Assembly: GCF_041886205.1 (NCBI RefSeq)
Contig: NZ_CP169029.1
Direction: 5' to 3' (one strand)
Length of the DNA stretch: 64,000 nucleotides
From: Escherichia coli
GTDB lineage: Bacteria > Pseudomonadota > Gammaproteobacteria > Enterobacterales > Enterobacteriaceae
Of the stretch, positions 2,794 through 62,147 are shown piece by piece. A model generated the notes under the pieces. It was not told the DNA's origin. It saw only the letters and a list, made by a program, of their open reading frames with translations, and made no database searches. The position numbers were made by a program, and so were the translations under genes. How positions within the stretch are numbered: position 1 is the first letter of the stretch; each line of letters begins with the position of its first letter.

Positions 2794-3301
2794 TTTTCTT
2801 CCGTGCGAGCATTAAGACATCCGGGTTGACCTTTACACCGCTACGCGATAAGGCATGCAGGTTTACGGCAAATCTGACGTCATTATTGTGGATGATCAGA
2901 CAAAAGGCGCTACCAATAATGCACTCGGTATTTTGTTCGGCAATTAATAATAACGCCTTTGACGGATATTGTTCGGTTAATTCCATCTGGAATGTCGGTG
3001 ACTCGTTGCCAAAATAAAAACCATTGCAGCCTGAAATCATCGCCTCTTGTTGAGTGTGAATGATGACAGGCAGATAAGGCAAAGATGTCGCGGCATTCTC
3101 TTGTAGGGCGGTACTAAAACGTGAAGATGAAAAGATACATAACTTTGGTGGCCCTGATAGCGCAGGCCAGCGGGTGTAACTGACAATACCGGAAACCATC
3201 ATACGCACGTTTTTCGCAACGTCAGAAGGCTCCTGAGCGAGTATTGGTGCTCCCGTCAGCAGGAGAATCAGAAGTAAGAACAGTCGGTGAGAAAAACGCA
3301 T
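2783..3301 (-). CDS. yfiR: Periplasmic repressor of DgcN, YfiR
   Basis: 172-aa ORF with signal peptide, first gene of the yfiRNB operon. Confidence 0.86.
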
Positions 3302-3450
3302 TCAGGGATCCCCACCATCTTCGCTCGAAATGCATCGATATTTTTTCAGAATACTCATTAAAATATCATTTTTTCATGCGATAGTCATCAATGTGAGAAA
3401 TAAAACACAATGAGTAAAATTTTATGTTTAATTTATTTGTGGGGTTTTAA

Positions 3451-3834
3451 TTAATTTAATCGTATTGTGCTGGCATTTTCATCAGCCCCTTTTTGCCATA
3501 CTTCATGCAATTGGCTGGCATTTTCAACATTGTTGCAGCTGGCAGGAAAGCTTTTACCGGAAAGTCCTCGGGCATAAGTAAAATCGGTCTGGCAAGTTTT
3601 CTTTTGTCCTTCGGCATATCCTTTAAGGTATAGACCGCGATCCGCCTGTGAATCGCTAAATGCATCGTCATCTTTTATGGCGCTGCCCGATATCGCATCT
3701 TCCATACCAACATCATACCAGTCGGTGCTGGTCAAGGTTGGCGCGTGAGTATAAGGATCAATCTGACATCCGCTAACCAGTAAAGCCAACAAGGGGGCGA
3801 TAAATTTTTTCATCATTTCTTTCTCCTTTTTCAA
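3451..3834 (-). CDS. yfiL: Small lipoprotein YfiL (true start may be an internal Met)
   Basis: ORF with signal peptide and lipobox (LVSGC); position between yfiR and aroF. Confidence 0.7.
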   Translation of the reverse strand: MKKEKEMMKKFIAPLLALLVSGCQIDPYTHAPTLTSTDWYDVGMEDAISGSAIKDDDAFSDSQADRGLYLKGYAEGQKKTCQTDFTYARGLSGKSFPASCNNVENASQLHEVWQKGADENASTIRLN

Positions 3835-3861
3835 AGCATAGCGGATTGTTTTTAAAGGAGG

Positions 3862-3953
3862 TGTAAATTTATTTGTACGAAAATAAGCGTCAAAGCGCGA
3901 ATAAATTGTTTTTGTAAAGAAAAATGTACGAAATATGGATTGAAAACTTTACT
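3862..3953. promoter_or_regulatory. Three TyrR-box-like sites (TGTAAA-N6-TTTACA family) in the aroF promoter region
   Basis: tgtaaatttatttgtacg (3862..3879), tgtaaagaaaaatgtacg (3913..3930) and tggattgaaaactttact (3936..3953, box on opposite strand) read directly. Confidence 0.6.
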
Positions 3954-4024
3954 GTATGTGTTATCGTTACGTCATCCTCGCTGAGGATCAACTATCGCAA
4001 ACGAGCATAAACAGGATCGCCATC

Positions 4025-5095
4025 ATGCAAAAAGACGCGCTGAATAACGTACATATTACCGACGAACAGGTTTTAATGACTCCGGAACAACTGAAGGCCG
4101 CTTTTCCATTGAGCCTGCAACAAGAAGCCCAGATTGCTGACTCGCGTAAAACCATTTCAGATATTATCGCCGGGCGCGATCCTCGTCTGCTGGTAGTATG
4201 TGGTCCTTGTTCCATTCATGATCCGGAAACTGCTCTGGAATATGCTCGTCGATTTAAAGCCCTTGCCGCAGAGGTCAGCGATAGCCTCTATCTGGTAATG
4301 CGCGTCTATTTTGAAAAACCCCGTACCACTGTCGGCTGGAAAGGGTTAATTAACGATCCCCATATGGATGGCTCTTTTGATGTAGAAGCCGGGCTGCAGA
4401 TCGCGCGTAAATTGCTGCTTGAGCTGGTGAATATGGGACTGCCACTGGCGACGGAAGCGTTAGATCCGAATAGCCCGCAATACCTGGGCGATCTGTTTAG
4501 CTGGTCAGCAATTGGTGCTCGTACAACGGAATCGCAAACTCACCGTGAAATGGCCTCCGGGCTTTCCATGCCGGTTGGTTTTAAAAACGGCACCGATGGC
4601 AGTCTGGCAACGGCAATTAACGCTATGCGCGCCGCCGCCCAGCCGCACCGTTTTGTTGGCATTAACCAGGCAGGGCAGGTTGCGTTGCTACAAACTCAGG
4701 GAAATCCGGACGGGCATGTTATCCTGCGTGGTGGTAAAGCGCCGAACTATAGCCCTGCGGATGTTGCGCAATGTGAAAAAGAGATGGAACAGGCGGGACT
4801 GCGCCCGTCTCTGATGGTAGATTGCAGCCACGGTAATTCCAATAAAGATTATCGCCGTCAGCCTGCGGTGGCAGAATCCGTGGTTGCTCAAATCAAAGAT
4901 GGCAATCGCTCAATTATTGGTCTGATGATCGAAAGTAATATCCACGAGGGCAATCAGTCTTCCGAGCAACCGCGCAGTGAAATGAAATACGGTGTATCCG
5001 TAACCGATGCCTGCATTAGCTGGGAAATGACCGATGCCTTGCTGCGTGAAATTCACCAGGATCTGAACGGGCAGCTGACGGCTCGCGTGGCTTAA
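4025..5095 (+). CDS. aroF: Tyrosine-sensitive DAHP synthase (3-deoxy-7-phosphoheptulonate synthase)
   Basis: ORF 3956..5095; start placed at internal ATG giving [11 protein letters not shown]... (356 aa); class I DAHP synthase motifs; followed by tyrA. Confidence 0.93.
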
Positions 5096-5105
5096 GAGGT
5101 TTATT

Positions 5106-6227
5106 ATGGTTGCTGAATTGACCGCATTACGCGATCAAATTGATGAAGTCGATAAAGCGCTGCTGAATTTATTAGCGAAGCGTCTGGAACTGGTTGCTGA
5201 AGTGGGCGAGGTGAAAAGCCGCTTTGGACTGCCTATTTATGTTCCGGAGCGCGAGGCATCTATGCTGGCCTCACGTCGTGCAGAGGCGGAAGCTCTGGGT
5301 GTACCGCCAGATCTGATTGAGGATGTTTTGCGTCGGGTGATGCGTGAATCTTACTCCAGTGAAAACGACAAAGGATTTAAAACACTTTGTCCGTCACTGC
5401 GTCCGGTGGTTATCGTCGGTGGTGGCGGTCAGATGGGACGTCTGTTCGAGAAGATGCTGATACTCTCGGGTTATCAGGTGCGGATTCTGGAGCAACATGA
5501 CTGGGATCGAGCGGCTGATATTGTTGCCGATGCTGGAATGGTGATTGTTAGTGTGCCCATTCATGTTACTGAGCAAGTTATCGGCAAATTACCGCCTTTA
5601 CCGAAAGATTGTATTCTGGTTGATCTGGCATCAGTGAAAAATGGACCGTTACAGGCCATGCTGGCGGCGCACGATGGCCCGGTACTGGGGTTACACCCAA
5701 TGTTCGGTCCGGACAGCGGTAGCCTGGCAAAGCAAGTTGTGGTCTGGTGTGATGGACGTAAGCCGGAAGCATACCAATGGTTTCTGGAGCAAATTCAGGT
5801 CTGGGGCGCTCGGCTGCATCGTATTAGCGCTGTCGAGCACGATCAGAATATGGCGTTTATTCAGGCTCTGCGCCACTTTGCTACTTTTGCTTATGGGCTG
5901 CACCTGGCAGAAGAAAATGTTCAGCTTGAGCAACTTCTGGCGCTCTCTTCGCCGATTTACCGCCTTGAACTGGCGATGGTTGGGCGACTGTTTGCTCAGG
6001 ATCCGCAGCTTTATGCCGACATTATTATGTCGTCAGAGCGTAATCTGGCGTTAATCAAACGTTACTATAAGCGTTTCGGCGAGGCGATTGAGTTGCTGGA
6101 GCAGGGCGATAAGCAGGCGTTTATTGACAGTTTCCGCAAGGTGGAGCACTGGTTCGGCGATTACGCACAGCGTTTTCAGAGTGAAAGCCGCGTGTTATTG
6201 CGTCAGGCGAATGACAACCGCCAGTAA
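5106..6227 (+). CDS. tyrA: Bifunctional chorismate mutase / prephenate dehydrogenase (T-protein)
   Basis: 373-aa ORF; N-terminal chorismate mutase, NAD-binding GGGGQMG motif. Confidence 0.95.
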
Positions 6228-7450: not shown

Positions 7451-7486
7451 AATAAAAAAGGCCCCCCGATTTGGGAGGCCTTATTG
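7451..7486 (-). terminator. pheA attenuator terminator hairpin (minus strand)
   Basis: On minus strand ggcctcccaaatcggggggcc followed by ttttttatt, between pheL stop and pheA start. Confidence 0.7.
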
Positions 7487-7528
7487 TTCGTCTTCGCATT
7501 CTGTTTCACACGACGAAACGCCTCCCAT

Positions 7529-7576
7529 TCAGGGGAAGGTAAAAAAGAATGCGAAGAAAAACGGTGTGTGTTTCAT
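7529..7576 (-). CDS. pheL: pheA leader peptide (15 aa, 7 Phe codons), translated here as MKHTPFFFAFFFTFP
   Basis: Manual translation of the minus strand; not in the ORF track because it is below the length cut-off. Confidence 0.85.
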   Translation of the reverse strand: MKHTPFFFAFFFTFP

Positions 7577-7631
7577 GTTTGTTTCCTTAAGTGACTTTAG
7601 TACAGTACCCGTACTGTTTTCACGCTGTCAA

Positions 7632-10872: not shown

Positions 10873-10934
10873 CCTAAAGAATCAAGACGATCCGGTACGC
10901 GTGATTTTCTTTTCACATTAATCTGGTCAATAAC

Positions 10935-10964
10935 CTTGAATAATTGAGGGATGACCTCATTTAA
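10935..10964 (+). promoter_or_regulatory. Sigma-32 heat-shock promoter of clpB
   Basis: cttgaa ... cctcatttaa, matching the CTTGAA-N13-15-CCCCATNT class, about 40-65 nt upstream of clpB. Confidence 0.6.
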
Positions 10965-11001
10965 TCTCCAGTAGCAACTTTGATCCGTTATGGGAGGAGT
11001 T

Positions 11002-13575
11002 ATGCGTCTGGATCGTCTTACTAATAAATTCCAGCTTGCTCTTGCCGATGCCCAATCACTTGCACTCGGGCACGACAACCAATTTATCGAACCACTTCAT
11101 TTAATGAGCGCCCTGCTGAATCAGGAAGGGGGTTCGGTTAGTCCTTTATTAACATCCGCTGGCATAAATGCTGGCCAGTTGCGCACAGATATCAATCAGG
11201 CATTAAATCGTTTACCGCAGGTTGAAGGTACTGGTGGTGATGTCCAGCCATCACAGGATCTGGTGCGCGTTCTTAATCTTTGCGACAAGCTGGCGCAAAA
11301 ACGTGGTGATAACTTTATCTCGTCAGAACTGTTCGTTCTGGCGGCACTTGAGTCTCGCGGCACGCTGGCCGACATCCTGAAAGCAGCAGGGGCGACCACC
11401 GCCAACATTACTCAAGCGATTGAACAAATGCGTGGAGGTGAAAGCGTGAACGATCAAGGTGCTGAAGACCAACGTCAGGCTTTGAAAAAATATACCATCG
11501 ACCTTACCGAACGAGCCGAACAGGGCAAACTCGATCCGGTGATTGGTCGTGATGAAGAAATTCGCCGTACCATTCAGGTGCTGCAACGTCGTACTAAAAA
11601 TAACCCGGTACTGATTGGTGAACCCGGCGTCGGTAAAACTGCCATCGTTGAAGGTCTGGCGCAGCGTATTATCAACGGCGAAGTGCCGGAAGGATTGAAA
11701 GGCCGCCGCGTGCTGGCGCTGGATATGGGCGCGCTGGTGGCTGGGGCGAAATATCGCGGTGAGTTTGAAGAACGTTTAAAAGGCGTGCTTAACGATCTTG
11801 CCAAACAGGAAGGCAACGTCATCCTGTTTATCGACGAATTACATACCATGGTCGGCGCGGGTAAAGCTGATGGCGCAATGGACGCCGGAAACATGCTGAA
11901 ACCGGCGCTGGCGCGTGGTGAATTGCACTGCGTAGGTGCCACGACGCTTGACGAATATCGCCAGTACATTGAAAAAGATGCTGCGCTGGAACGTCGTTTC
12001 CAGAAAGTGTTTGTTGCCGAGCCTTCTGTTGAAGATACCATTGCGATTCTGCGTGGCCTGAAAGAACGTTACGAATTGCACCACCATGTGCAAATTACTG
12101 ACCCGGCAATTGTTGCAGCGGCGACGTTGTCTCATCGCTACATTGCTGACCGTCAGCTGCCGGATAAAGCCATCGACCTGATCGATGAAGCAGCATCCAG
12201 CATTCGTATGCAGATTGACTCAAAACCAGAAGAACTCGACCGACTCGATCGTCGTATCATCCAGCTCAAACTGGAACAACAGGCGTTAATGAAAGAGTCT
12301 GATGAAGCCAGTAAAAAACGCCTGGATATGCTCAACGAAGAACTGAGCGACAAAGAACGTCAGTACTCCGAGTTAGAAGAAGAGTGGAAAGCAGAGAAAG
12401 CATCGCTTTCTGGTACGCAGACCATTAAAGCGGAACTGGAACAGGCGAAAATCGCTATTGAACAGGCTCGCCGTGTGGGGGACCTGGCGCGGATGTCTGA
12501 ACTGCAATACGGCAAAATCCCGGAACTGGAAAAGCAACTGGAAGCCGCAACGCAGCTCGAAGGCAAAACTATGCGTCTGTTGCGTAATAAAGTGACCGAT
12601 GCCGAAATTGCTGAAGTGCTGGCGCGTTGGACTGGGATTCCGGTTTCTCGCATGATGGAAAGCGAGCGCGAAAAACTGCTGCGTATGGAGCAAGAACTGC
12701 ACCATCGCGTTATTGGTCAGAACGAAGCGGTTGATGCGGTATCTAACGCTATTCGTCGTAGCCGTGCGGGGCTGGCGGATCCAAATCGCCCGATTGGTTC
12801 ATTCCTGTTCCTCGGCCCAACGGGTGTGGGGAAAACAGAGCTTTGTAAGGCGCTGGCGAACTTTATGTTTGATAGCGACGAGGCGATGGTCCGTATCGAT
12901 ATGTCCGAGTTTATGGAGAAACACTCGGTGTCTCGTTTGGTTGGTGCGCCTCCGGGATATGTCGGTTATGAAGAAGGTGGCTACCTGACCGAAGCGGTGC
13001 GTCGTCGTCCGTATTCCGTCATCCTGCTGGATGAAGTGGAAAAAGCGCATCCGGATGTCTTCAACATTCTGTTGCAGGTACTGGATGATGGGCGTCTGAC
13101 TGACGGGCAGGGGAGAACGGTCGACTTCCGTAATACGGTTGTCATTATGACCTCTAACCTCGGTTCCGATTTGATTCAGGAACGCTTCGGTGAACTGGAT
13201 TATGCGCACATGAAAGAGCTGGTGCTCGGTGTGGTAAGCCATAACTTCCGTCCGGAATTCATTAACCGTATCGATGAAGTGGTGGTTTTCCATCCGCTGG
13301 GTGAACAGCACATTGCGTCGATTGCGCAGATTCAGTTGAAACGTCTGTACAAACGTCTGGAAGAACGTGGTTATGAAATCCACATTTCTGACGAGGCGCT
13401 GAAACTGCTGAGCGAGAACGGTTACGATCCGGTCTATGGTGCACGTCCTCTGAAACGTGCAATTCAGCAGCAGATCGAAAACCCGCTGGCACAGCAAATA
13501 CTGTCTGGTGAATTGGTTCCGGGTAAAGTGATTCGCCTGGAAGTTAATGAAGACCGGATTGTCGCCGTCCAGTAA
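11002..13575 (+). CDS. clpB: Chaperone/disaggregase ClpB (two AAA+ modules)
   Basis: 857-aa product [18 protein letters not shown]...; two Walker A motifs ([16 protein letters not shown]); RBS gggaggag. ORF track starts 12 nt upstream at an in-frame ATG. Confidence 0.95.
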
Positions 13576-14018: not shown

Positions 14019-15560
<1,542 letters not shown>

Positions 15561-15645
15561 CCTTAAAGAAGCGTACTTTGCAGTGCTCACACAGATTGTC
15601 TGATAGAAAGTGAAAAGCAAGGCGTCTTGCGAAGCAGACTGATAC

Positions 15646-15721
15646 GTCCCCTTCGTCTAGAGGCCCAGGACACCGCCCTTTCACGGCGGTAACAGGGGTT
15701 CGAATCCCCTAGGGGACGCCA
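15646..15721 (+). tRNA. gltW: tRNA-Glu (anticodon UUC) in the 16S-23S spacer
   Basis: GTCCCCTTCGTCTAGAGGCCCAGGACACCGCCCTTTCACGGCGG...GGGGACGCCA; anticodon loop CTTTCAC; 76 nt including CCA. Confidence 0.95.
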
Positions 15722-15914
15722 CTTGCTGGTTTGTGAGTGAAAGTCACCTGCCTTAATATCTCAAAACTCATCTTCGGGTGATGTTTGAGATATTTGCTCT
15801 TTAAAAATCTGGATCAAGCTGAAAATTGAAACACTGAACAACGAAAGTTGTTCGTGAGTCTCTCAAATTTTCGCAACACGATGATGAATCGCAAGAAACA
15901 TCTTCGGGTTGTGA

Positions 15915-18818
<2,904 letters not shown>

Positions 18819-18911
18819 ACAACGCCGAAGATGTTTTGGCGGATTGAGAGAAGATTTTCAGCCTGATACAGATTAAATCAGAACGCAGAAGCGGTCTGAT
18901 AAAACAGAATT

Positions 18912-19031
18912 TGCCTGGCGGCCTTAGCGCGGTGGTCCCACCTGACCCCATGCCGAACTCAGAAGTGAAACGCCGTAGCGCCGATGGTAGTGTGGGGTCT
19001 CCCCATGCGAGAGTAGGGAACTGCCAGGCAT
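18912..19031 (+). rRNA. rrfG: 5S ribosomal RNA
   Basis: TGCCTGGCGGCC...GGGAACTGCCAGGCAT, 120 nt. Confidence 0.95.
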
Positions 19032-19130: not shown

Positions 19131-19382
19131 GGACATAAATGATGTAATTTCAGCAAGTTATCTCGACATCCTCTACCTGCAAGTCAAAGTGCTTATTCAC
19201 GATCAATCCCAACCACATCGATTTTCTATATAACCAGAATCCCCCAAAATCATTCTCCTGCTAACGAATTCACATTTGTGGTTGTATAATTATATGCAAC
19301 AATTACATAACATTTAATTCACCAAAAAACAAACAAAGCAATCGACAGAAAACATCAGGTTTATGGCAGGAGTAATATTCAC

Positions 19383-20681
19383 ATGACAGAAAGCACTGTA
19401 ACGACAGGCGATGAACTGACGTCCAAAGAGACCCGCCGTCGCATATGGGCAATTGTAGGGGCATCATCCGGCAATCTGGTAGAGTGGTTTGATTTCTATG
19501 TCTACTCGTTCTGCTCCCTCTACTTTGCTCACATATTTTTCCCTTCAGGTAACACTACTACGCAACTATTACAAACAGCTGGCGTTTTTGCTGCGGGCTT
19601 TCTAATGCGCCCTATAGGCGGCTGGCTATTTGGCCGCATAGCCGATAAACATGGTCGCAAAAAATCGATGCTTTTATCGGTGTGTATGATGTGTTTCGGC
19701 TCACTGATTATCGCCTGTTTGCCAGGCTACGAAACAATCGGTACCTGGGCCCCGGCATTATTGCTTCTTGCTCGTTTATTCCAGGGATTATCCGTTGGCG
19801 GAGAATATGGCACCAGCGCCACCTATATGAGTGAAGTCGCTGTCGAAGGGCGCAAAGGATTCTATGCCTCGTTCCAGTATGTCACGTTAATTGGTGGGCA
19901 ACTGCTGGCGTTACTGGTTGTGGTTGTTCTGCAACAGACGCTTGATGACACCACGTTGAGACAGTGGGGCTGGCGCATACCTTTTGTGATCGGTGCCGTG
20001 TTGGCAATTGTGGCTTTGTGGTTACGTCGCCAGTTAGATGAAACTTCGCAACATGAAACGCGAGCGTTAAAAGAAGCGGGCTCAATGAAAGGGCTATGGC
20101 GCAATCGCCGTGCATTCATGATGGTGCTAGGCTTTACTGCTGCGGGCTCGCTCTGCTTTTACACCTTCACCACCTATATGCAAAAGTATCTGGTCAACAC
20201 CGCTGGTATGCATGCCAACATGGCGAGTGGCATTATGACTGCTGCATTGTTTGTATTCATGCTTATTCAACCACTCATTGGTGCACTGTCGGATAAAATT
20301 GGCCGCCGGACATCAATGTTATGCTTCGGTTCGCTGGCTGCTATTTTTACCGTCCCGATCCTGTCGGCATTGCAGAATGTCACCTCACCTTATGCAGCCT
20401 TTGGGCTGGTGATGTGCGCATTGCTGATTGTCAGTTTTTATACCTCTATCAGTGGCATCCTTAAAGCAGAAATGTTTCCGGCACAGGTTCGCGCCCTGGG
20501 CGTCGGCCTTTCTTATGCAGTTGCTAACGCCTTATTTGGCGGCTCTGCGGAGTATGTGGCGCTGTCGCTGAAATCGGTAGGGATGGAAACAGCATTCTTC
20601 TGGTATGTGACCTTGATGGCCGTGGTGGCGTTTCTGGTTTCTTTGATGCTACATCGCAAAGGGAAGGGGATGCGTCTTTAG
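19383..20681 (+). CDS. kgtP: Alpha-ketoglutarate:H+ symporter (MFS)
   Basis: 432-aa polytopic membrane ORF; position just after rrnG. Confidence 0.92.
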
Positions 20682-21022
20682 TGACGGGTCAGTTGCCAGA
20701 CGGTATAGCCGGTGCTTGCACCGGCGACATCCCAGGCCAAATCCTTCCAGCTCCAGCCGCTCCCTTCGGGGCGGCTATCCCAAAGCTCTTTTGACGCCCC
20801 CAAACTGACAGAGAACATCAATCCAAACATGGCACTGCGATCCCGGCTCATCCCCTGATGCTGTGAATATTCATTTCCGGCGGCGGAAAGCATCGCCGAG
20901 GCGATAAAGTGTTGAGCTTTATCCTGCCCGCTCCAGCTATCGTTAGCCATATGGCTGCATCCAGAAAGTAACAATAGCGAACAGACAAAAAGAATACGCA
21001 AAACGTGGCCTCCAAAAAACAA
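20678..21022 (-). CDS. yfiM: Lipoprotein YfiM (start may be internal)
   Basis: 114-aa ORF with signal peptide and lipobox (LLSGCS); convergent with kgtP, 4-nt 3' overlap. Confidence 0.78.
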
Positions 21023-30896: not shown

Positions 30897-32231
30897 TTAC
30901 TCTTCTGTCGTTTGCGGTGGCACGCCCGTTCCGCTCGGTTTACGGCGCTTACCAATATTTTTGGTGTCGCGATGGCGTTTTTTCACCCGCGGCTTCTCTT
31001 TCTCTTTAGCTTTTTTCTTCTCGGCGCGTTTTGCCAGTACTTTCTTCGATGGCTTGCCGGTCTGCTTCTCGCTTGGCGCACGCGTTTTCGGGCGTAACTC
31101 ATCAATTACGCGAGCTTTAATTGGCTCTTCAATATAGCGACCAACTTTGCCCAGCAGCAGATGGTCATGGGCTTCTACCAGCGAAATTGCGGTGCCTTTA
31201 CGACCGGCGCGCGCGGTACGTCCGATACGGTGCAAATAAGTATCGCCACTGCGCGGCATATCGAAGTTAAAGACGTGGCTGACGTCAGGAATGTCGATAC
31301 CGCGCGCGGCAACATCGGTTGCAACCAGTACGTTTACGCGACCTTCGGTCAAACGCTTGATCGCTTCGTTACGCTTGCCTTGTACCATCTCACCTTCGAG
31401 ATAGCAGTTGTTGATGCCCGCTTCGCGCAGCCAGTTTGCCAGCTCATGCACACGTTCACGCTTACGCACAAACACAATTGAGCGGGTCGCTTCCGGCTGT
31501 TTTAACAGATGCACCAGCAACGCGGTTTTATGCTCAAGATCATCGGCGCGGTAATACCACTGATGAATTTTTTTGCGCTCACGGGTGGACGGATTGGCAG
31601 AAACTTCCACCGGGTCTTCCAGCAGACGCTCGGCAAAGTCCTGAATCGCATCGCCTTCCAGCGTTGCCGAAAAGAGCAGGGTCTGTTTACGCCAGCGCGT
31701 TTCGCCAGCAATATGTTCGATATCCTGAGCGAAGCCCATATCCAGCATACGGTCTGCTTCGTCGAGGATCAGCGTTTCAACCGCGCGGCAATCGAAGTTC
31801 TCTTCTTTTATGTATTGCAGCAGACGTCCGGTCGTGGCGACCACGATGTCCTGATTTTCGCTGAACACTTCCGCGTGGTTCATATAGGCTACGCCGCCGG
31901 TGATGGTGGCGATATCCAGATGCGTATGTTTCGCCAGTTCGCGGGCATGATCGGCTACCTGCATCGCCAGCTCGCGAGTTGGGGTGAGGATCAAAATACG
32001 CGGCGGACCGGATTTCTTACGTGGGAAATCGAGCAGGTGCTGCAACGCTGGCAGCAGATACGCCGCCGTTTTACCGGTGCCTGTCGGCGCAGAACCGAGT
32101 ACATCACGGCCATCGAGCGCAGGCGGAATGGCGGCAGCCTGAATGGCGGTCGGGCGAGTGAAACCTTTATCCTCGAGGGCTTCCAGCAGGCTTTCGTCGA
32201 GTTCAAGTTCGGAAAAAGTCGTTACAGTCAT
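30897..32231 (-). CDS. srmB: ATP-dependent DEAD-box RNA helicase SrmB
   Basis: 444-aa ORF with Q-motif, [10 protein letters not shown] Walker A, DEAD, SAT and a basic C-terminal tail. Confidence 0.94.
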
Positions 32232-36373: not shown

Positions 36374-37329
36374 TGAAGCAACTTTGGTTTGCCATGTCAT
36401 TAGTGACAGGTAGCCTGTTATTCTCTGCTAACGCCTCGGCCACTCCCGCGTCCGGGGCGTTATTACAGCAGATGAACCTGGCCAGTCAGTCACTGAATTA
36501 CGAGCTGTCATTCATCAGCATCAATAAACAGGGTGTTGAGTCTCTGCGTTATCGACATGCACGCCTCGATAACCGTCCTCTTGCACAATTGTTGCAAATG
36601 GATGGCCCGCGCCGGGAAGTGGTACAGCGCGGCAATGAAATCAGCTATTTTGAACCGGGACTTGAACCGTTCACGCTTAATGGCGATTACATTGTTGATT
36701 CTCTGCCATCGCTCATCTATACCGATTTCAAACGCCTTTCTCCTTACTACGACTTCATCTCCGTCGGGCGCACGCGTATTGCTGATCGTCTTTGCGAAGT
36801 CATTCGCGTGGTTGCCCGAGATGGTACACGCTACAGCTACATCGTGTGGATGGACACTGAATCGAAATTACCGATGAGGGTTGATCTCCTTGATCGCGAT
36901 GGTGAAACGCTGGAACAATTTCGCGTGATTGCTTTTAACGTCAATCAGGATATCAGCAGCAGTATGCAGACGTTGGCGAAGGCAAATTTGCCGCCGTTGC
37001 TTTCTGTTCCTGTAGGTGAAAAAGCTAAATTCAGCTGGACGCCAACCTGGTTGCCACAGGGTTTTAGCGAAGTTTCCAGTAGTCGACGTCCGCTACCGAC
37101 GATGGACAACATGCCTATCGAATCACGTCTCTATTCCGACGGATTATTCAGCTTCTCGGTAAACGTTAACCGCGCTACGCCATCGAGCACCGATCAGATG
37201 TTGCGCACCGGACGCAGAACCGTCAGTACAAGCGTACGTGATAACGCCGAAATCACCATTGTCGGTGAACTGCCGCCGCAAACGGCGAAACGCATTGCCG
37301 AGAATATTAAGTTCGGGGCAGCGCAATGA
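36373..37329 (+). CDS. rseB: Sigma-E regulatory protein RseB (periplasmic)
   Basis: 318-aa ORF with signal peptide; coupled to rseA (1-nt overlap). Confidence 0.93.
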   Translation: MKQLWFAMSLVTGSLLFSANASATPASGALLQQMNLASQSLNYELSFISINKQGVESLRYRHARLDNRPLAQLLQMDGPRREVVQRGNEISYFEPGLEPFTLNGDYIVDSLPSLIYTDFKRLSPYYDFISVGRTRIADRLCEVIRVVARDGTRYSYIVWMDTESKLPMRVDLLDRDGETLEQFRVIAFNVNQDISSSMQTLAKANLPPLLSVPVGEKAKFSWTPTWLPQGFSEVSSSRRPLPTMDNMPIESRLYSDGLFSFSVNVNRATPSSTDQMLRTGRRTVSTSVRDNAEITIVGELPPQTAKRIAENIKFGAAQ

Positions 37330-37805
37330 TCAAAGAGTGGGCTACCGTCGTCTCCTGGCAAAACGGGCAGGCGCTGGTCAGTTGTGATGTTAAAGCCTCA
37401 TGCAGCAGCTGCGCTTCACGCGCCGGTTGCGGTAGCCGCGTGTTGAATAAACTTGGCCCGCAAACCACGCATACCATTGTCGTACCCTGTGATGAGCCGT
37501 TAGTGCCGGGGCAAAAAGTGGAATTGGGGATCGCCGAAGGCAGCCTGCTTAGCTCCGCATTACTGGTTTATATGTCGCCGCTGGTGGGATTATTCCTCAT
37601 CGCTTCGCTATTTCAGCTACTCTTTGCTTCTGACGTCGCAGCATTATGTGGTGCGGTCCTCGGCGGTATTGGCGGGTTCCTGATTGCGCGTGGCTACTCG
37701 CGTAAGTTTGCTGCCCGGGCAGAATGGCAACCGATCATCTTAAGCGTGGCATTGCCGCCTGGCCTTGTGCGATTTGAAACATCTTCGGAAGACGCGAGCC
37801 AGTGA
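37326..37805 (+). CDS. rseC: Sigma-E regulatory protein RseC (SoxR-reducing system family)
   Basis: 159-aa ORF with Cys-rich N-terminus and two TM segments; 4-nt overlap with rseB. Confidence 0.9.
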   Translation: MIKEWATVVSWQNGQALVSCDVKASCSSCASRAGCGSRVLNKLGPQTTHTIVVPCDEPLVPGQKVELGIAEGSLLSSALLVYMSPLVGLFLIASLFQLLFASDVAALCGAVLGGIGGFLIARGYSRKFAARAEWQPIILSVALPPGLVRFETSSEDASQ

Positions 37806-38002
37806 TTTCACTGGCTTTGTTGCATTTTGCATAACAAATGCGAGGACGTTTCCAGATACCACAATCCATACGGTATGAACATTTCCTCGCCTCAATGTTG
37901 TAGTGTAGAATGCGGCGTTTCTATTAATACAGACGTTAAGCTCAGAACAGCGACTTCTAAAAGCCTGGTTAACCGGGCATTAAGGCACAATAATCATACT
38001 TT

Positions 38003-39802
<1,800 letters not shown>

Positions 39803-40838: not shown

Positions 40839-40937
40839 TTATTTATGAGATAAATCTCCCGTGGCTAACGACATCCCCCGTCGTTGTGTATAGAATATTC
40901 CCCCGAAGTTTAAGGTTGGCACCTCCAGGTTGCCACG

Positions 40938-41031
40938 GCACACGAAACAGCGTTGGTCCCCATATACCGCTAAACTGAAACTGCAGCGAAGCAGTTAGCA
41001 GAGCCATGTATATCAGGTCTGTTTCGTGTGC
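40938..41031 (+). promoter_or_regulatory. rnc leader: 13-bp perfect inverted repeat able to form a long-range stem, consistent with the RNase III autoregulatory cleavage site
   Basis: gcacacgaaacag (40938..40950) and ctgtttcgtgtgc (41019..41031) read directly. Confidence 0.5.
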
Positions 41032-41034
41032 TGA

Positions 41035-42647
<1,613 letters not shown>

Positions 42648-60947: not shown

Positions 60948-62147
60948 TCAAATCTGTCGTAACTGCGCCTCAACATACAAATAGCCAATTCCCAGCACCT
61001 GTTGTGCGCGGCTTAATTGCCCGAAGCCAATTTGCGTCGCTTTCACGCTCGGTCCTTCGTCGCGGTCGAACGGGTTAAATCCTGTCTGGCGAATAATAGT
61101 ATTAAGCCAGTTCTCACCAAAGGCACAACTGCGACCGTACAACCAAATCTGATTAATATTGAGGATGTTGAGGAAGTTATACAGACTCAAACCAATGGCA
61201 TTGGCAGAGCGATCAACCCAGCTGGTGATCCACGGTTCTCCACTCTGCCAGGCAGCGATTAACTGCGCGGTTGTCAGTTTTTCAGGATCAAGCTGAGTAT
61301 TAACCGGTTGTGATTTTAGCCATACCCGCGCCTGTTTTTTTAATGCACTTAACGAGGCGACGGTTTCCAGGCAGCCGTAACGTCCACAGTCGCAGACGAC
61401 GCCATCCGGATTAACGATGGTGTGACCAATCTGTCCGCTACCATACAAACTGCCGCGATAAATTTGCTCGTTAATCACGAACGACGAGCCAATGCCGTAA
61501 TCAACGTTGATCACGCAGAAATCCCGTTCCTGCGAATTATTTTGCCATTTCTCCGCCAGCGCCAGCATCACGCAGTCATTATCGACCATCACCCGAATGC
61601 CCAGCTTCTCTTCCAGCAGATACTTCACCTCAACCGGCGTTGTCCACGGCGCTTGCGGCATGGTTTGCGATACGCCGGTCACCGGATCAACCTGCCCGTG
61701 GATTGCCAGCGCCAGATTGATGGTGCGGCCCGGCCACAGTTTGCGATGACGATGCCAGCATTTTTCGATTTCGGACAGCAGCGCCTGCGGCGTCGGTGCA
61801 TCAATCTGTAAATACTCAAATTCACCTTTCGGACTTAAACAAGCATTAGCAACCTGACACTCAATACTGGTGGGCGTCACGTTCAGGCACAGCGTCCAGT
61901 CACCTTCCGGCGCAATCAGCCATGTACCGCTACTATGCCCGCGCGTCTGGCTTTCATCGTCAATATTCACCACCCGTTTTTCGCTTTCCAGTTCCTGCAA
62001 AATATTACTGACTGCCGGAATCGAAATTTGCGCCAGCCGGGCCAGCGTTGATTTATTGGCGCGCTTTTGCCGGTACAGCAGTTCCAGAATCACGCATTTG
62101 TTATGGTGGCGAATCTGTTGATTATTAATGCAGGCTCTCATCTTCAC
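60948..62147 (-). CDS. yphH: ROK/NagC-family transcriptional regulator YphH
   Basis: 399-aa ORF with N-terminal HTH and ROK sugar-kinase-like fold with Cys/His zinc motif (CDCGRYGCLE). Confidence 0.85.
   Translation of the reverse strand: MKMRACINNQQIRHHNKCVILELLYRQKRANKSTLARLAQISIPAVSNILQELESEKRVVNIDDESQTRGHSSGTWLIAPEGDWTLCLNVTPTSIECQVANACLSPKGEFEYLQIDAPTPQALLSEIEKCWHRHRKLWPGRTINLALAIHGQVDPVTGVSQTMPQAPWTTPVEVKYLLEEKLGIRVMVDNDCVMLALAEKWQNNSQERDFCVINVDYGIGSSFVINEQIYRGSLYGSGQIGHTIVNPDGVVCDCGRYGCLETVASLSALKKQARVWLKSQPVNTQLDPEKLTTAQLIAAWQSGEPWITSWVDRSANAIGLSLYNFLNILNINQIWLYGRSCAFGENWLNTIIRQTGFNPFDRDEGPSVKATQIGFGQLSRAQQVLGIGYLYVEAQLRQI

What the first reader, a model, noticed from the sequence alone, without database searches (positions are those of the whole stretch)
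3862..3953. Cluster of three TyrR-box-like sequences in the yfiL-aroF intergenic region
Three 18-bp elements of the TGTAAA-N6-TTTACA family lie 70-165 bp upstream of the aroF start, two on the top strand and one on the bottom. This is the expected TyrR-mediated repression architecture for the aroF-tyrA operon.
Basis: partly seen in the sequence, partly recalled or inferred. Interest (0 to 1): 0.2.

Follow-up and report, generated by a model that had tools for sequence, protein, structure and literature searches.

The report
Known TyrR operator of aroF-tyrA
These three short palindromes are the well-known binding sites through which the tyrosine-sensing repressor TyrR shuts off the E. coli aroF-tyrA operon; the finding is correct but ordinary.

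Summary
The observation and its interpretation both hold. The window is E. coli (yfiN-yfiR-yfiL | aroF-tyrA | pheA).

The three elements are:
- Box 3, 3862-3879, TGTAAATTTATTTGTACG, 10/12 consensus matches.
- Box 2, 3913-3930, TGTAAAGAAAAATGTACG, 10/12.
- Box 1, 3936-3953, TGGATTGAAAACTTTACT, 8/12 (weak).

They lie 163-72 bp upstream of the aroF ATG (4025). They are orthologous to K-12 aroF TyrR boxes 3, 2 and 1.

- **PWM test:** a matrix built only from TyrR boxes of six other K-12 operons ranks them 1st, 2nd and 7th of 63,983 window positions.
- **Shuffle test:** none of 20,000 local shuffles reproduces even the two strong sites.
- **Layout:** all three keep the G-N14-C pair. Box 1 is 23 bp from box 2 and overlaps a conserved TTGAAA / TGnTATCGT promoter.
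- **Conservation:** the three-box layout recurs in 45 of 116 Enterobacterales species. Box 3 to box 2 spacings there are only 51-54 bp.

The most likely mechanism is the textbook one: tyrosine and ATP drive a TyrR hexamer onto the three boxes, which excludes RNA polymerase.

One detail is specific to this strain. It carries a rare allele (14 of 5,426 genomes) with a slightly weaker box 3 and a 51-bp rather than 52-bp box 3 to box 2 spacing. Both values fall within natural variation. Already known; low interest.

The parts
3862..3879 (.). TyrR box 3 (distal strong box), TGTAAATTTATTTGTACG, 10/12, G2 and C17 present
   Evidence: PWM rank 1 of 63,983, at 17.25 bits. Orthologous to K-12 TGTAAATTTATCTATACA at -164.
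3913..3930 (.). TyrR box 2 (proximal strong box), TGTAAAGAAAAATGTACG, 10/12, G2 and C17 present
   Evidence: PWM rank 2, at 16.59 bits. K-12 has TGTAAATAAAAATGTACG at -112. Arm positions are near-invariant in 44 species sequences.
3936..3953 (.). TyrR box 1 (weak box), TGGATTGAAAACTTTACT, 8/12, G2 and C17 present. It starts 23 bp after the box 2 start and overlaps the -35.
   Evidence: PWM rank 7, at 10.39 bits, within the range of known weak boxes. Identical in all 7 E. coli alleles aligned. Right arm TTTAC is invariant in 44 species.
3940..3945 (+). Predicted aroF promoter -35 hexamer TTGAAA (inside box 1)
   Evidence: Consensus scan. Conserved across Enterobacteriaceae. The transcription start was not mapped here.
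3959..3967 (+). Predicted extended -10, TGt-TATCGT (16-bp spacer from the -35). The inferred transcription start is near 3974.
   Evidence: Consensus scan with TG flag. The TG and T-A-T-x-G-T columns have high information in 44 species. The start position is inference only.
4025..5095 (+). aroF (Tyr-sensitive DAHP synthase), first gene of the regulated operon
   Evidence: plus RefSeq annotation of identical DNA.
5106..6227 (+). tyrA (chorismate mutase / prephenate dehydrogenase), second gene of the operon
3451..3816 (-). yfiL (DUF2799 lipoprotein), divergent neighbour. Its start codon lies 46 bp from box 3.

Best explanation
The interval is the operator-promoter of the aroF-tyrA operon. Boxes 3 and 2 are high-affinity TyrR sites. 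Box 1 is a low-affinity site that overlaps the -35 hexamer of an extended -10 sigma-70 promoter.

When tyrosine is scarce, TyrR dimers can sit on the strong boxes, the weak box is free, and aroF-tyrA is transcribed. When tyrosine (with ATP) is abundant, TyrR self-associates into a hexamer. The hexamer engages all three boxes at once. Box 2 and box 1 are adjacent (23 bp), and box 3 is about 5 helical turns upstream with the intervening DNA looped. Occupying box 1 keeps RNA polymerase off the promoter.

Shown here: the sites, their scores, spacing, overlap with the predicted promoter, orthology to K-12, and conservation.

Inferred from published K-12 work: actual TyrR binding, hexamerisation and promoter occlusion.
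For: **Motif**
- An aroF-free PWM ranks the boxes 1, 2 and 7 of 63,983 positions.
- 0 of 20,000 local shuffles give two such sites.
- All three boxes keep the G-N14-C pair that the literature calls essential for binding (PMC4374768).

**Architecture**
- The weak box lies 23 bp from a strong box, exactly as in the aroL, aroP and tyrP pairs of K-12.
- Box 1 covers TTGAAA of the only forward promoter-like site in the interval.

**Orthology**
- The boxes align with the K-12 aroF boxes at -164, -112 and -89.

**Purifying selection**
- Among 7 E. coli alleles the box arms vary at 2 of 36 positions, against 14 of 39 positions between boxes (Fisher p = 0.0016).
- In 44 distinct species sequences, G2 and C17 are invariant in all three boxes.

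**Spacing**
- 71 of 116 Enterobacterales loci have the 22-23 bp pair.
- 59 of those 71 also have an upstream box, and the box 3 to box 2 distances cluster at 51-54 bp (45 loci) and 61-63 bp (6 loci). None fall at 55-60 bp. Six outliers lie outside these two clusters: 17, 42 and 95-109 bp.
- This points to whole helical turns, as expected for one protein complex contacting both sites.

**Literature**
- Tyrosine-dependent hexameric TyrR blocks RNA polymerase at aroF-tyrA (PMC10170061).
- Dimers on three boxes form a repressing hexamer (PMC2831303).
- The aroF promoter is TyrR/Tyr-repressed (PMC11878033).
- Deleting tyrR raises aroF 39- to 52-fold in Yersinia pestis (PMC4325908).

**Regulator present**
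- tyrR is present in 5,415 of 5,426 complete E. coli genomes.
Against: - Nothing found contradicts the explanation.
- No binding or expression data exist for this allele.
- Box 3 is one consensus match weaker than in K-12 (10/12 against 11/12; 17.25 against 20.19 bits).
- The box 3 to box 2 spacing is 51 rather than 52 bp, at the short edge of the natural range.
- Conservation of the left half of box 1 is confounded by its overlap with the -35.
- The cross-species box statistics come from loci selected by PWM hits, which inflates apparent conservation inside the boxes.
- tyrR itself is not in the window.
- The transcription start was not verified.
Confidence: 0.95

Rival explanations
1. The matches are chance occurrences of an A+T-rich palindrome in an A+T-rich intergenic region, with no regulatory role.
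For: The whole-window count of consensus matches is at or below chance: 2 against 2.26 expected at up to 2 mismatches, and 19 against 24.4 at up to 3. The intergenic region is only 35% GC. Box 1 alone has 4 mismatches.
Against: - 0 of 20,000 composition-matched local shuffles give two sites this good.
- The three boxes rank 1, 2 and 7 with an independent PWM.
- P(3 of 7 random positions within 75 bp) = 1.3e-4.
- The layout is conserved in 45 species with fixed 23-bp spacing and helical-turn spacing.
- The box arms are protected from polymorphism.
Confidence: 0.01
2. Box 3 (possibly with box 2) also, or mainly, controls the divergent gene yfiL. TyrR bound at box 3 would occlude a leftward promoter, making this a bidirectional operator.
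For: A minus-strand promoter-like site (TTGACG at 3893-3888, 16-bp spacer, TAAATT at 3871-3866) has its -10 inside box 3. Box 3 is only 46 bp from the yfiL start codon. TyrR does regulate a divergent pair in Enterobacter cloacae.
Against: - The site is only a 9/12 consensus match, and shuffles of the region give 1.1 such matches on average.
- The TTGACG hexamer is allele-specific. K-12 reads TTCAAC there.
- The papers read here do not list yfiL in the TyrR regulon.
- The three-box layout tracks the aroF start in genomes scanned with an aroF-only pattern.
Confidence: 0.04
3. Conservation of 'box 1' reflects only promoter elements (the -35 and upstream contacts). Repression works through boxes 2 and 3 alone.
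For: Box 1 is a poor match (8/12). Its left arm contains the -35 TTGAAA, which would be conserved anyway.
Against: - The right arm TTTAC (3948-3952) lies in the promoter spacer, where sequence is normally free. Yet it is invariant in 44 species, as are G2 and C17.
- The exact 23-bp register to box 2 matches weak-strong pairs at aroL, aroP and tyrP.
- Its PWM score falls in the range of proven weak boxes.
Confidence: 0.03

Closest known systems
E. coli K-12 aroF-tyrA operator (TyrR boxes 1, 2, 3)
   Same: Same locus, same gene neighbours and same three boxes at -163/-112/-89 (K-12: -164/-112/-89). Box 1 is identical. Same -35 and extended -10.
   Different: - Box 3 right arm is TGTACG instead of TATACA (10/12 against 11/12), and its N6 position 12 is T instead of C.
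- Box 2 has G for T at N6 position 7.
- A 1-bp deletion after 3891 makes the box 3 to box 2 spacing 51 instead of 52 bp.
- T to G change at 3954 in the promoter spacer.
- This allele occurs in only 14 of 5,426 complete genomes.
E. coli K-12 aroL (aroLM) operator
   Same: Same three-box design: a strong-weak pair 23 bp apart and a distal strong box 53 bp further upstream. Also repressed by the tyrosine-dependent TyrR hexamer.
   Different: It is a different operon. According to the literature aroL is additionally under TrpR control. The order of weak and strong boxes relative to the promoter differs.
tyrP and aroP strong-weak TyrR box pairs
   Same: Adjacent strong and weak boxes in a 23-bp register, with G-N14-C in each.
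   Different: They have only two boxes and no distal third box. tyrP can also be activated by TyrR with phenylalanine.

Membership tests
TyrR box (TyrR operator site) | Match to the palindrome TGTAAA-N6-TTTACA: at least 10/12 is a strong box, fewer is a weak box (definition in PMC4374768) | tested here: met
   Box 3 is 10/12, box 2 is 10/12 and box 1 is 8/12. aroF-free PWM scores are 17.25, 16.59 and 10.39 bits, inside the known strong and weak ranges.
TyrR box (TyrR operator site) | Invariant G and C, 14 bp apart, in the two arms | tested here: met
   G at position 2 and C at position 17 in all three boxes. Both are invariant in 44 species sequences.
TyrR box (TyrR operator site) | A weak box lies next to a strong box, which it needs for occupancy | tested here: met
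   Box 1 starts 23 bp after box 2, the same register as the aroL, aroP and tyrP pairs in K-12 and in 58 further species.
TyrR box (TyrR operator site) | Physical binding of TyrR protein (footprint or EMSA) | not testable with these tools
   From my own recollection of the literature, footprinting and operator-mutation data exist for the K-12 allele (Cobbett & Delbridge 1987; Andrews et al. 1991). Only their citations and titles were seen here; neither paper could be read. There are no data for this allele.
aroF-tyrA TyrR repression architecture | A box overlaps the core promoter so that bound TyrR excludes RNA polymerase | tested here: met
   Box 1 (3936-3953) contains the predicted -35 TTGAAA at 3940-3945. 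The promoter elements are conserved. The transcription start was not verified.
aroF-tyrA TyrR repression architecture | The distal box is on the same helical face as the proximal pair (whole turns), allowing one hexamer to bridge them | tested here: met
   51 bp is about 4.9 turns. Of the 59 species loci with a third box, 45 have spacings of 51-54 bp and 6 have 61-63 bp, with none at 55-60 bp; six outliers lie at 17, 42 and 95-109 bp. 51 bp also occurs in Salmonella enterica subsp. arizonae (L093).
aroF-tyrA TyrR repression architecture | Orthology to the characterised K-12 operator, upstream of aroF-tyrA | tested here: met
   Alignment A1. Gene identities.
aroF-tyrA TyrR repression architecture | The cognate regulator tyrR is present in the same genome | tested here: inconclusive
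   tyrR is not in the 64-kb window. It is present in 5,415 of 5,426 complete E. coli genomes, so it is almost certainly present here.

The most novel reading that the evidence does not exclude
The rare allele in this strain could measurably retune regulation. It combines three changes:
- Box 3 is weakened from 11/12 to 10/12.
- The box 3 to box 2 spacing is shortened to 51 bp.
- A new TTGACG hexamer creates a leftward promoter-like site whose -10 lies in box 3.

Possible outcomes are partial derepression of aroF-tyrA, or bringing yfiL under tyrosine/TyrR control.
Probability: 0.06. Interest if true: 0.25.

Novelty: already known. Interest (0 to 1): 0.06.

Why it matters
This is a textbook operator and its rediscovery adds nothing new biologically. 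It does serve as a positive control for the first-stage reader, which recognised a real, experimentally characterised regulatory site from sequence alone.

The by-products are mildly useful:
- An aroF-independent matrix test.
- A 116-species footprint showing that the box 3 to box 2 distance clusters at whole helical turns (51 of 59 three-box loci, with six outliers).
- A description of a rare natural operator allele that could be used to probe tolerance of TyrR hexamer bridging to a 1-bp phase change.

Tried and rejected
1. Plain consensus counting over the whole window gave no enrichment. It was rejected as a significance test and replaced by a leave-aroF-out PWM, local shuffles and a clustering test.
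2. Retrieval of the primary aroF operator papers (PMC208198, PMC212103) failed because they are not held. Searching the literature for the exact K-12 box sequences found only an unrelated primer.
3. Rfam found no RNA family in the yfiL-aroF intergenic region.
4. The 5'-UTR hairpin at 3974-3988 is no more stable than shuffled sequence (z = -0.08), so it was not pursued.
5. A fourth box was looked for. The next-best PWM score in the intergenic region is 3.45 bits, and the 8/12 match CGCAAACGAGCATAAACA at -29 is therefore dismissed.
6. No tyrB boxes were recovered by my G2/C17 filter within -350 to +30, so tyrB was left out of the PWM.

Full report
**What is in the sequence**

Reading 3300-4500 and listing ORFs shows a 208-bp intergenic region between two genes. 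One is a leftward gene ending at its start codon at 3816. The other is a rightward gene whose real start is the ATG at 4025 ([11 protein letters not shown]...).

NCBIfam identifies the neighbours as follows:
- The rightward genes are AroF (NF009395, 601 bits; TIGR00034) and TyrA (NF008400, 691 bits).
- The leftward gene is the YfiL lipoprotein (NF008518).

A megablast of 3700-4130 hits 5,425 of 5,426 complete E. coli genomes, always once, and always under yfiL and aroF.

- Box 3 at 3862-3879, TGTAAATTTATTTGTACG.
- Box 2 at 3913-3930, TGTAAAGAAAAATGTACG.
- Box 1 at 3936-3953, TGGATTGAAAACTTTACT.

Against TGTAAA-N6-TTTACA they match 10, 10 and 8 of 12 positions. By the published definition this makes two strong boxes and one weak box (at least 10 is strong, fewer is weak, PMC4374768). 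All three have the G at position 2 and the C at position 17, which the same source calls invariant and essential. The boxes lie 163 to 72 bp upstream of the ATG.

**Is it more than chance?**

A simple consensus count is not. The whole window has 2 matches at up to 2 mismatches against 2.26 expected. It has 19 against 24.4 at up to 3 mismatches. Box 1, with 4 mismatches, is not found at all by these scans.

I therefore built an independent test:
- I fetched the regulatory regions of the other K-12 TyrR-regulon operons.
- I recovered their boxes: aroL x3, tyrR, aroP x2, aroG, tyrP x2 and mtr x2. That gives 7 strong and 4 weak boxes.
- I made a symmetric PWM from them that contains no aroF site.

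Scanning the 64 kb with this PWM ranks the three aroF boxes 1st, 2nd and 7th of 63,983 positions. With a strong-box-only matrix they rank 1st, 2nd and 12th.

- The chance that 3 of 7 random positions fall within 75 bp is 1.3e-4.
- To allow for the low GC (35%) of the intergenic region, I shuffled it 20,000 times preserving dinucleotides. In 41 shuffles one site reached 16.59 bits; in none did two.
- The scores (17.25, 16.59, 10.39) fall inside the ranges of the training boxes: strong 16.1-22.2 and weak 8.5-10.4.

**Anatomy**

The only forward promoter-like site in 3780-4080 has these parts:
- -35 hexamer TTGAAA at 3940-3945.
- A 16-bp spacer.
- -10 hexamer TATCGT at 3962-3967, with a TG two bases upstream (extended -10).

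The -35 lies inside box 1. Box 1 starts 23 bp after box 2. This is the same register as the weak-strong pairs of aroL (-128/-105), aroP (-88/-65) and tyrP (-109/-86) in K-12. Box 3 starts 51 bp before box 2. The inferred transcription start is near 3974; this is inference and was not mapped.

**Comparison with K-12 and other E. coli**

The alignment of seven alleles and the K-12 scan show K-12 boxes at -164, -112 and -89:
- TGTAAATTTATCTATACA
- TGTAAATAAAAATGTACG
- TGGATTGAAAACTTTACT

Compared with these, the window's boxes score as follows:
- Box 1 is identical.
- Box 2 differs at one N6 position.
- Box 3 differs at one N6 position and two arm positions. Its right arm reads TGTACG, the same as the box 2 right arm, which lowers it from 11/12 to 10/12.

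A 1-bp deletion after 3891 shortens the box 3 to box 2 spacing from 52 to 51 bp.

Across the seven alleles the 36 arm positions vary at 2 sites. The 39 columns between boxes vary at 14 (Fisher p = 0.0016). That is the signature of purifying selection on the boxes in an otherwise fast-evolving spacer.

The window's exact allele of 3858-3935 occurs in 14 of 5,426 genomes. A related allele without the deletion occurs in about 180. Over 3700-4130 only 16 genomes are at least 99% identical, and K-12 is 95.4% identical.

**Cross-species footprint**

One scan of the species-representative genome collection used a degenerate pattern for the AroF N-terminus (MQKDALNNV). The pattern is blind to the upstream DNA. 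It returned 120 Enterobacterales loci, and 116 of them had at least 260 bp upstream.

PWM scanning and tallying gave these results:
- 71 loci have a box 2 to box 1 pair at 22-23 bp.
- 59 of these also have an upstream box.
- 45 loci have the full layout of a 23-bp pair plus a third box 51-54 bp upstream. They include Escherichia, Salmonella, Citrobacter, Enterobacter, Klebsiella, Raoultella, Kluyvera, Leclercia, Lelliottia, Pluralibacter, Kosakonia, Cedecea and others.

The box 3 to box 2 distances among the 59 loci are distributed as follows:

| Spacing (bp) | Loci |
|---|---|
| 51 | 4 |
| 52 | 7 |
| 53 | 32 |
| 54 | 2 |
| 55-60 | 0 |
| 61-63 | 6 |
| 17, 42, 95-109 (outliers) | 6 |

These values cluster at about 5 or 6 whole helical turns. 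The window's 51 bp also occurs in Salmonella enterica subsp. arizonae (L093).

In 44 distinct sequences, G2 and C17 are invariant in all three boxes. The right arm of box 1 (TTTAC), which sits in the promoter spacer, is also invariant. The TG-n-TATxGT extended -10 is strongly conserved. Every base by which the window differs from K-12 is a common state among these species.

One caveat applies. The loci in this tally were chosen by PWM hits, so conservation inside the boxes is partly circular. The contrast with flanking columns and the spacing distribution are not circular.

**Mechanism**

The published model fits all of this.
- TyrR dimers bind strong boxes with high affinity, and weak boxes need an adjacent strong box.
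- With tyrosine and ATP, TyrR becomes a hexamer that can contact several boxes.
- At aroF-tyrA and aroLM the hexamer blocks RNA polymerase access (PMC10170061).
- aroF is repressed by TyrR with tyrosine as corepressor.
- In Yersinia pestis, deleting tyrR raises aroF 39- to 52-fold.
- tyrR is not in the window but is present in 5,415 of 5,426 E. coli genomes.

Shown here: site identity, quality, spacing, overlap with the predicted promoter, orthology and selection. Inferred: binding, hexamer bridging and occlusion on this allele.

**Rivals**

- Chance is excluded by the tests above.
- A role for box 3 in controlling yfiL is conceivable. A leftward 9/12 promoter-like site (TTGACG at 3893-3888, TAAATT at 3871-3866) has its -10 in box 3. 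However, the site is weak, its -35 is allele-specific (K-12 reads TTCAAC), and yfiL is not listed in the TyrR regulon in the papers read.
- The idea that box 1 is only a promoter element is contradicted by three things: the invariant right arm in the spacer, the fixed 23-bp register, and its weak-box-range score.

**Verdict**

This is the long-characterised TyrR operator of aroF-tyrA, here in a rare but unremarkable natural allele. Novelty: already known. Interest: low (0.06).

The primary K-12 footprint and mutant papers could not be opened. That such footprinting and operator-mutation data exist for K-12 rests on my own recollection of the literature; only the papers' citations and titles were seen here. 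The statement that these are the characterised boxes therefore rests on three things: the alignment to K-12, secondary literature, and that recollection.

Noticed in passing
window 3858-3935 (deletion after 3891; box 3 positions 3873, 3875, 3879; box 2 position 3919): This strain carries a rare operator allele, found in 14 of 5,426 complete E. coli genomes at 99% identity or more (for example CP61_Sichuan, CX08, LP5-1). A related allele without the 1-bp deletion occurs in about 180 genomes. Box 3 scores 17.25 bits against 20.19 in K-12, and the spacing is 51 bp against 52.
   Followed up: partly
window 3866-3893, minus strand: There is a leftward sigma-70-like site (TTGACG, 16-bp spacer, TAAATT; 9/12) facing yfiL, with its -10 inside TyrR box 3. 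The TTGACG hexamer is specific to this allele group; K-12 reads TTCAAC. It could couple yfiL to TyrR, but this is untested.
   Followed up: partly
window 3974-3988: A perfect 6-bp hairpin (AUCCUC-GCU-GAGGAU) sits at the predicted 5' end of the aroF mRNA. It is invariant in 7 E. coli alleles. The 63-nt UTR folds no better than shuffles (z = -0.08).
   Followed up: partly
L002 (E. coli ESDR8), about 7 bp inserted opposite window 3857-3858: A G-run expansion (GGGGGGGGGGGG) lies immediately upstream of box 3 in one E. coli genome. It may be a homopolymer slippage or an assembly artefact.
   Followed up: no
L015-L134 (aroF upstream regions of other Enterobacterales): The layout differs by lineage:
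- Yersinia and Serratia have only the adjacent pair (22-23 bp).
- Proteus, Photorhabdus, Xenorhabdus and Morganella have two boxes 41-42 bp apart (4 turns).
- Pantoea and Erwinia have a very strong distal box at about -205 to -222, roughly 95-109 bp from a degenerate proximal box (TGGTAATAAAAGTGTACA).
   Followed up: partly
window 20862-20879, 61807-61824, 19371-19388, 31093-31110: These are the other top TyrR-PWM hits in the window, at 10.9-12.9 bits: TGTGAATATTCATTTCCG, TGTAAATACTCAAATTCA, AGTAATATTCACATGACA and CGTAACTCATCAATTACG. They are isolated and unpaired. Their gene context was not examined, and they are probably chance.
   Followed up: no
window 7452-7577 (-), 14019-19029 (+), 10883-11021, 37290-38121, 40905-41119, 44532-44596, 53797-53944: Rfam gathering-threshold hits elsewhere in the window: Phe leader upstream of pheA; a complete rrn operon (16S, tRNA, 23S, 5S); RyfD; AsrC; rncO; ohsC; and GlmY. 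This is consistent with the K-12 gene order around 58-59 min.
   Followed up: no
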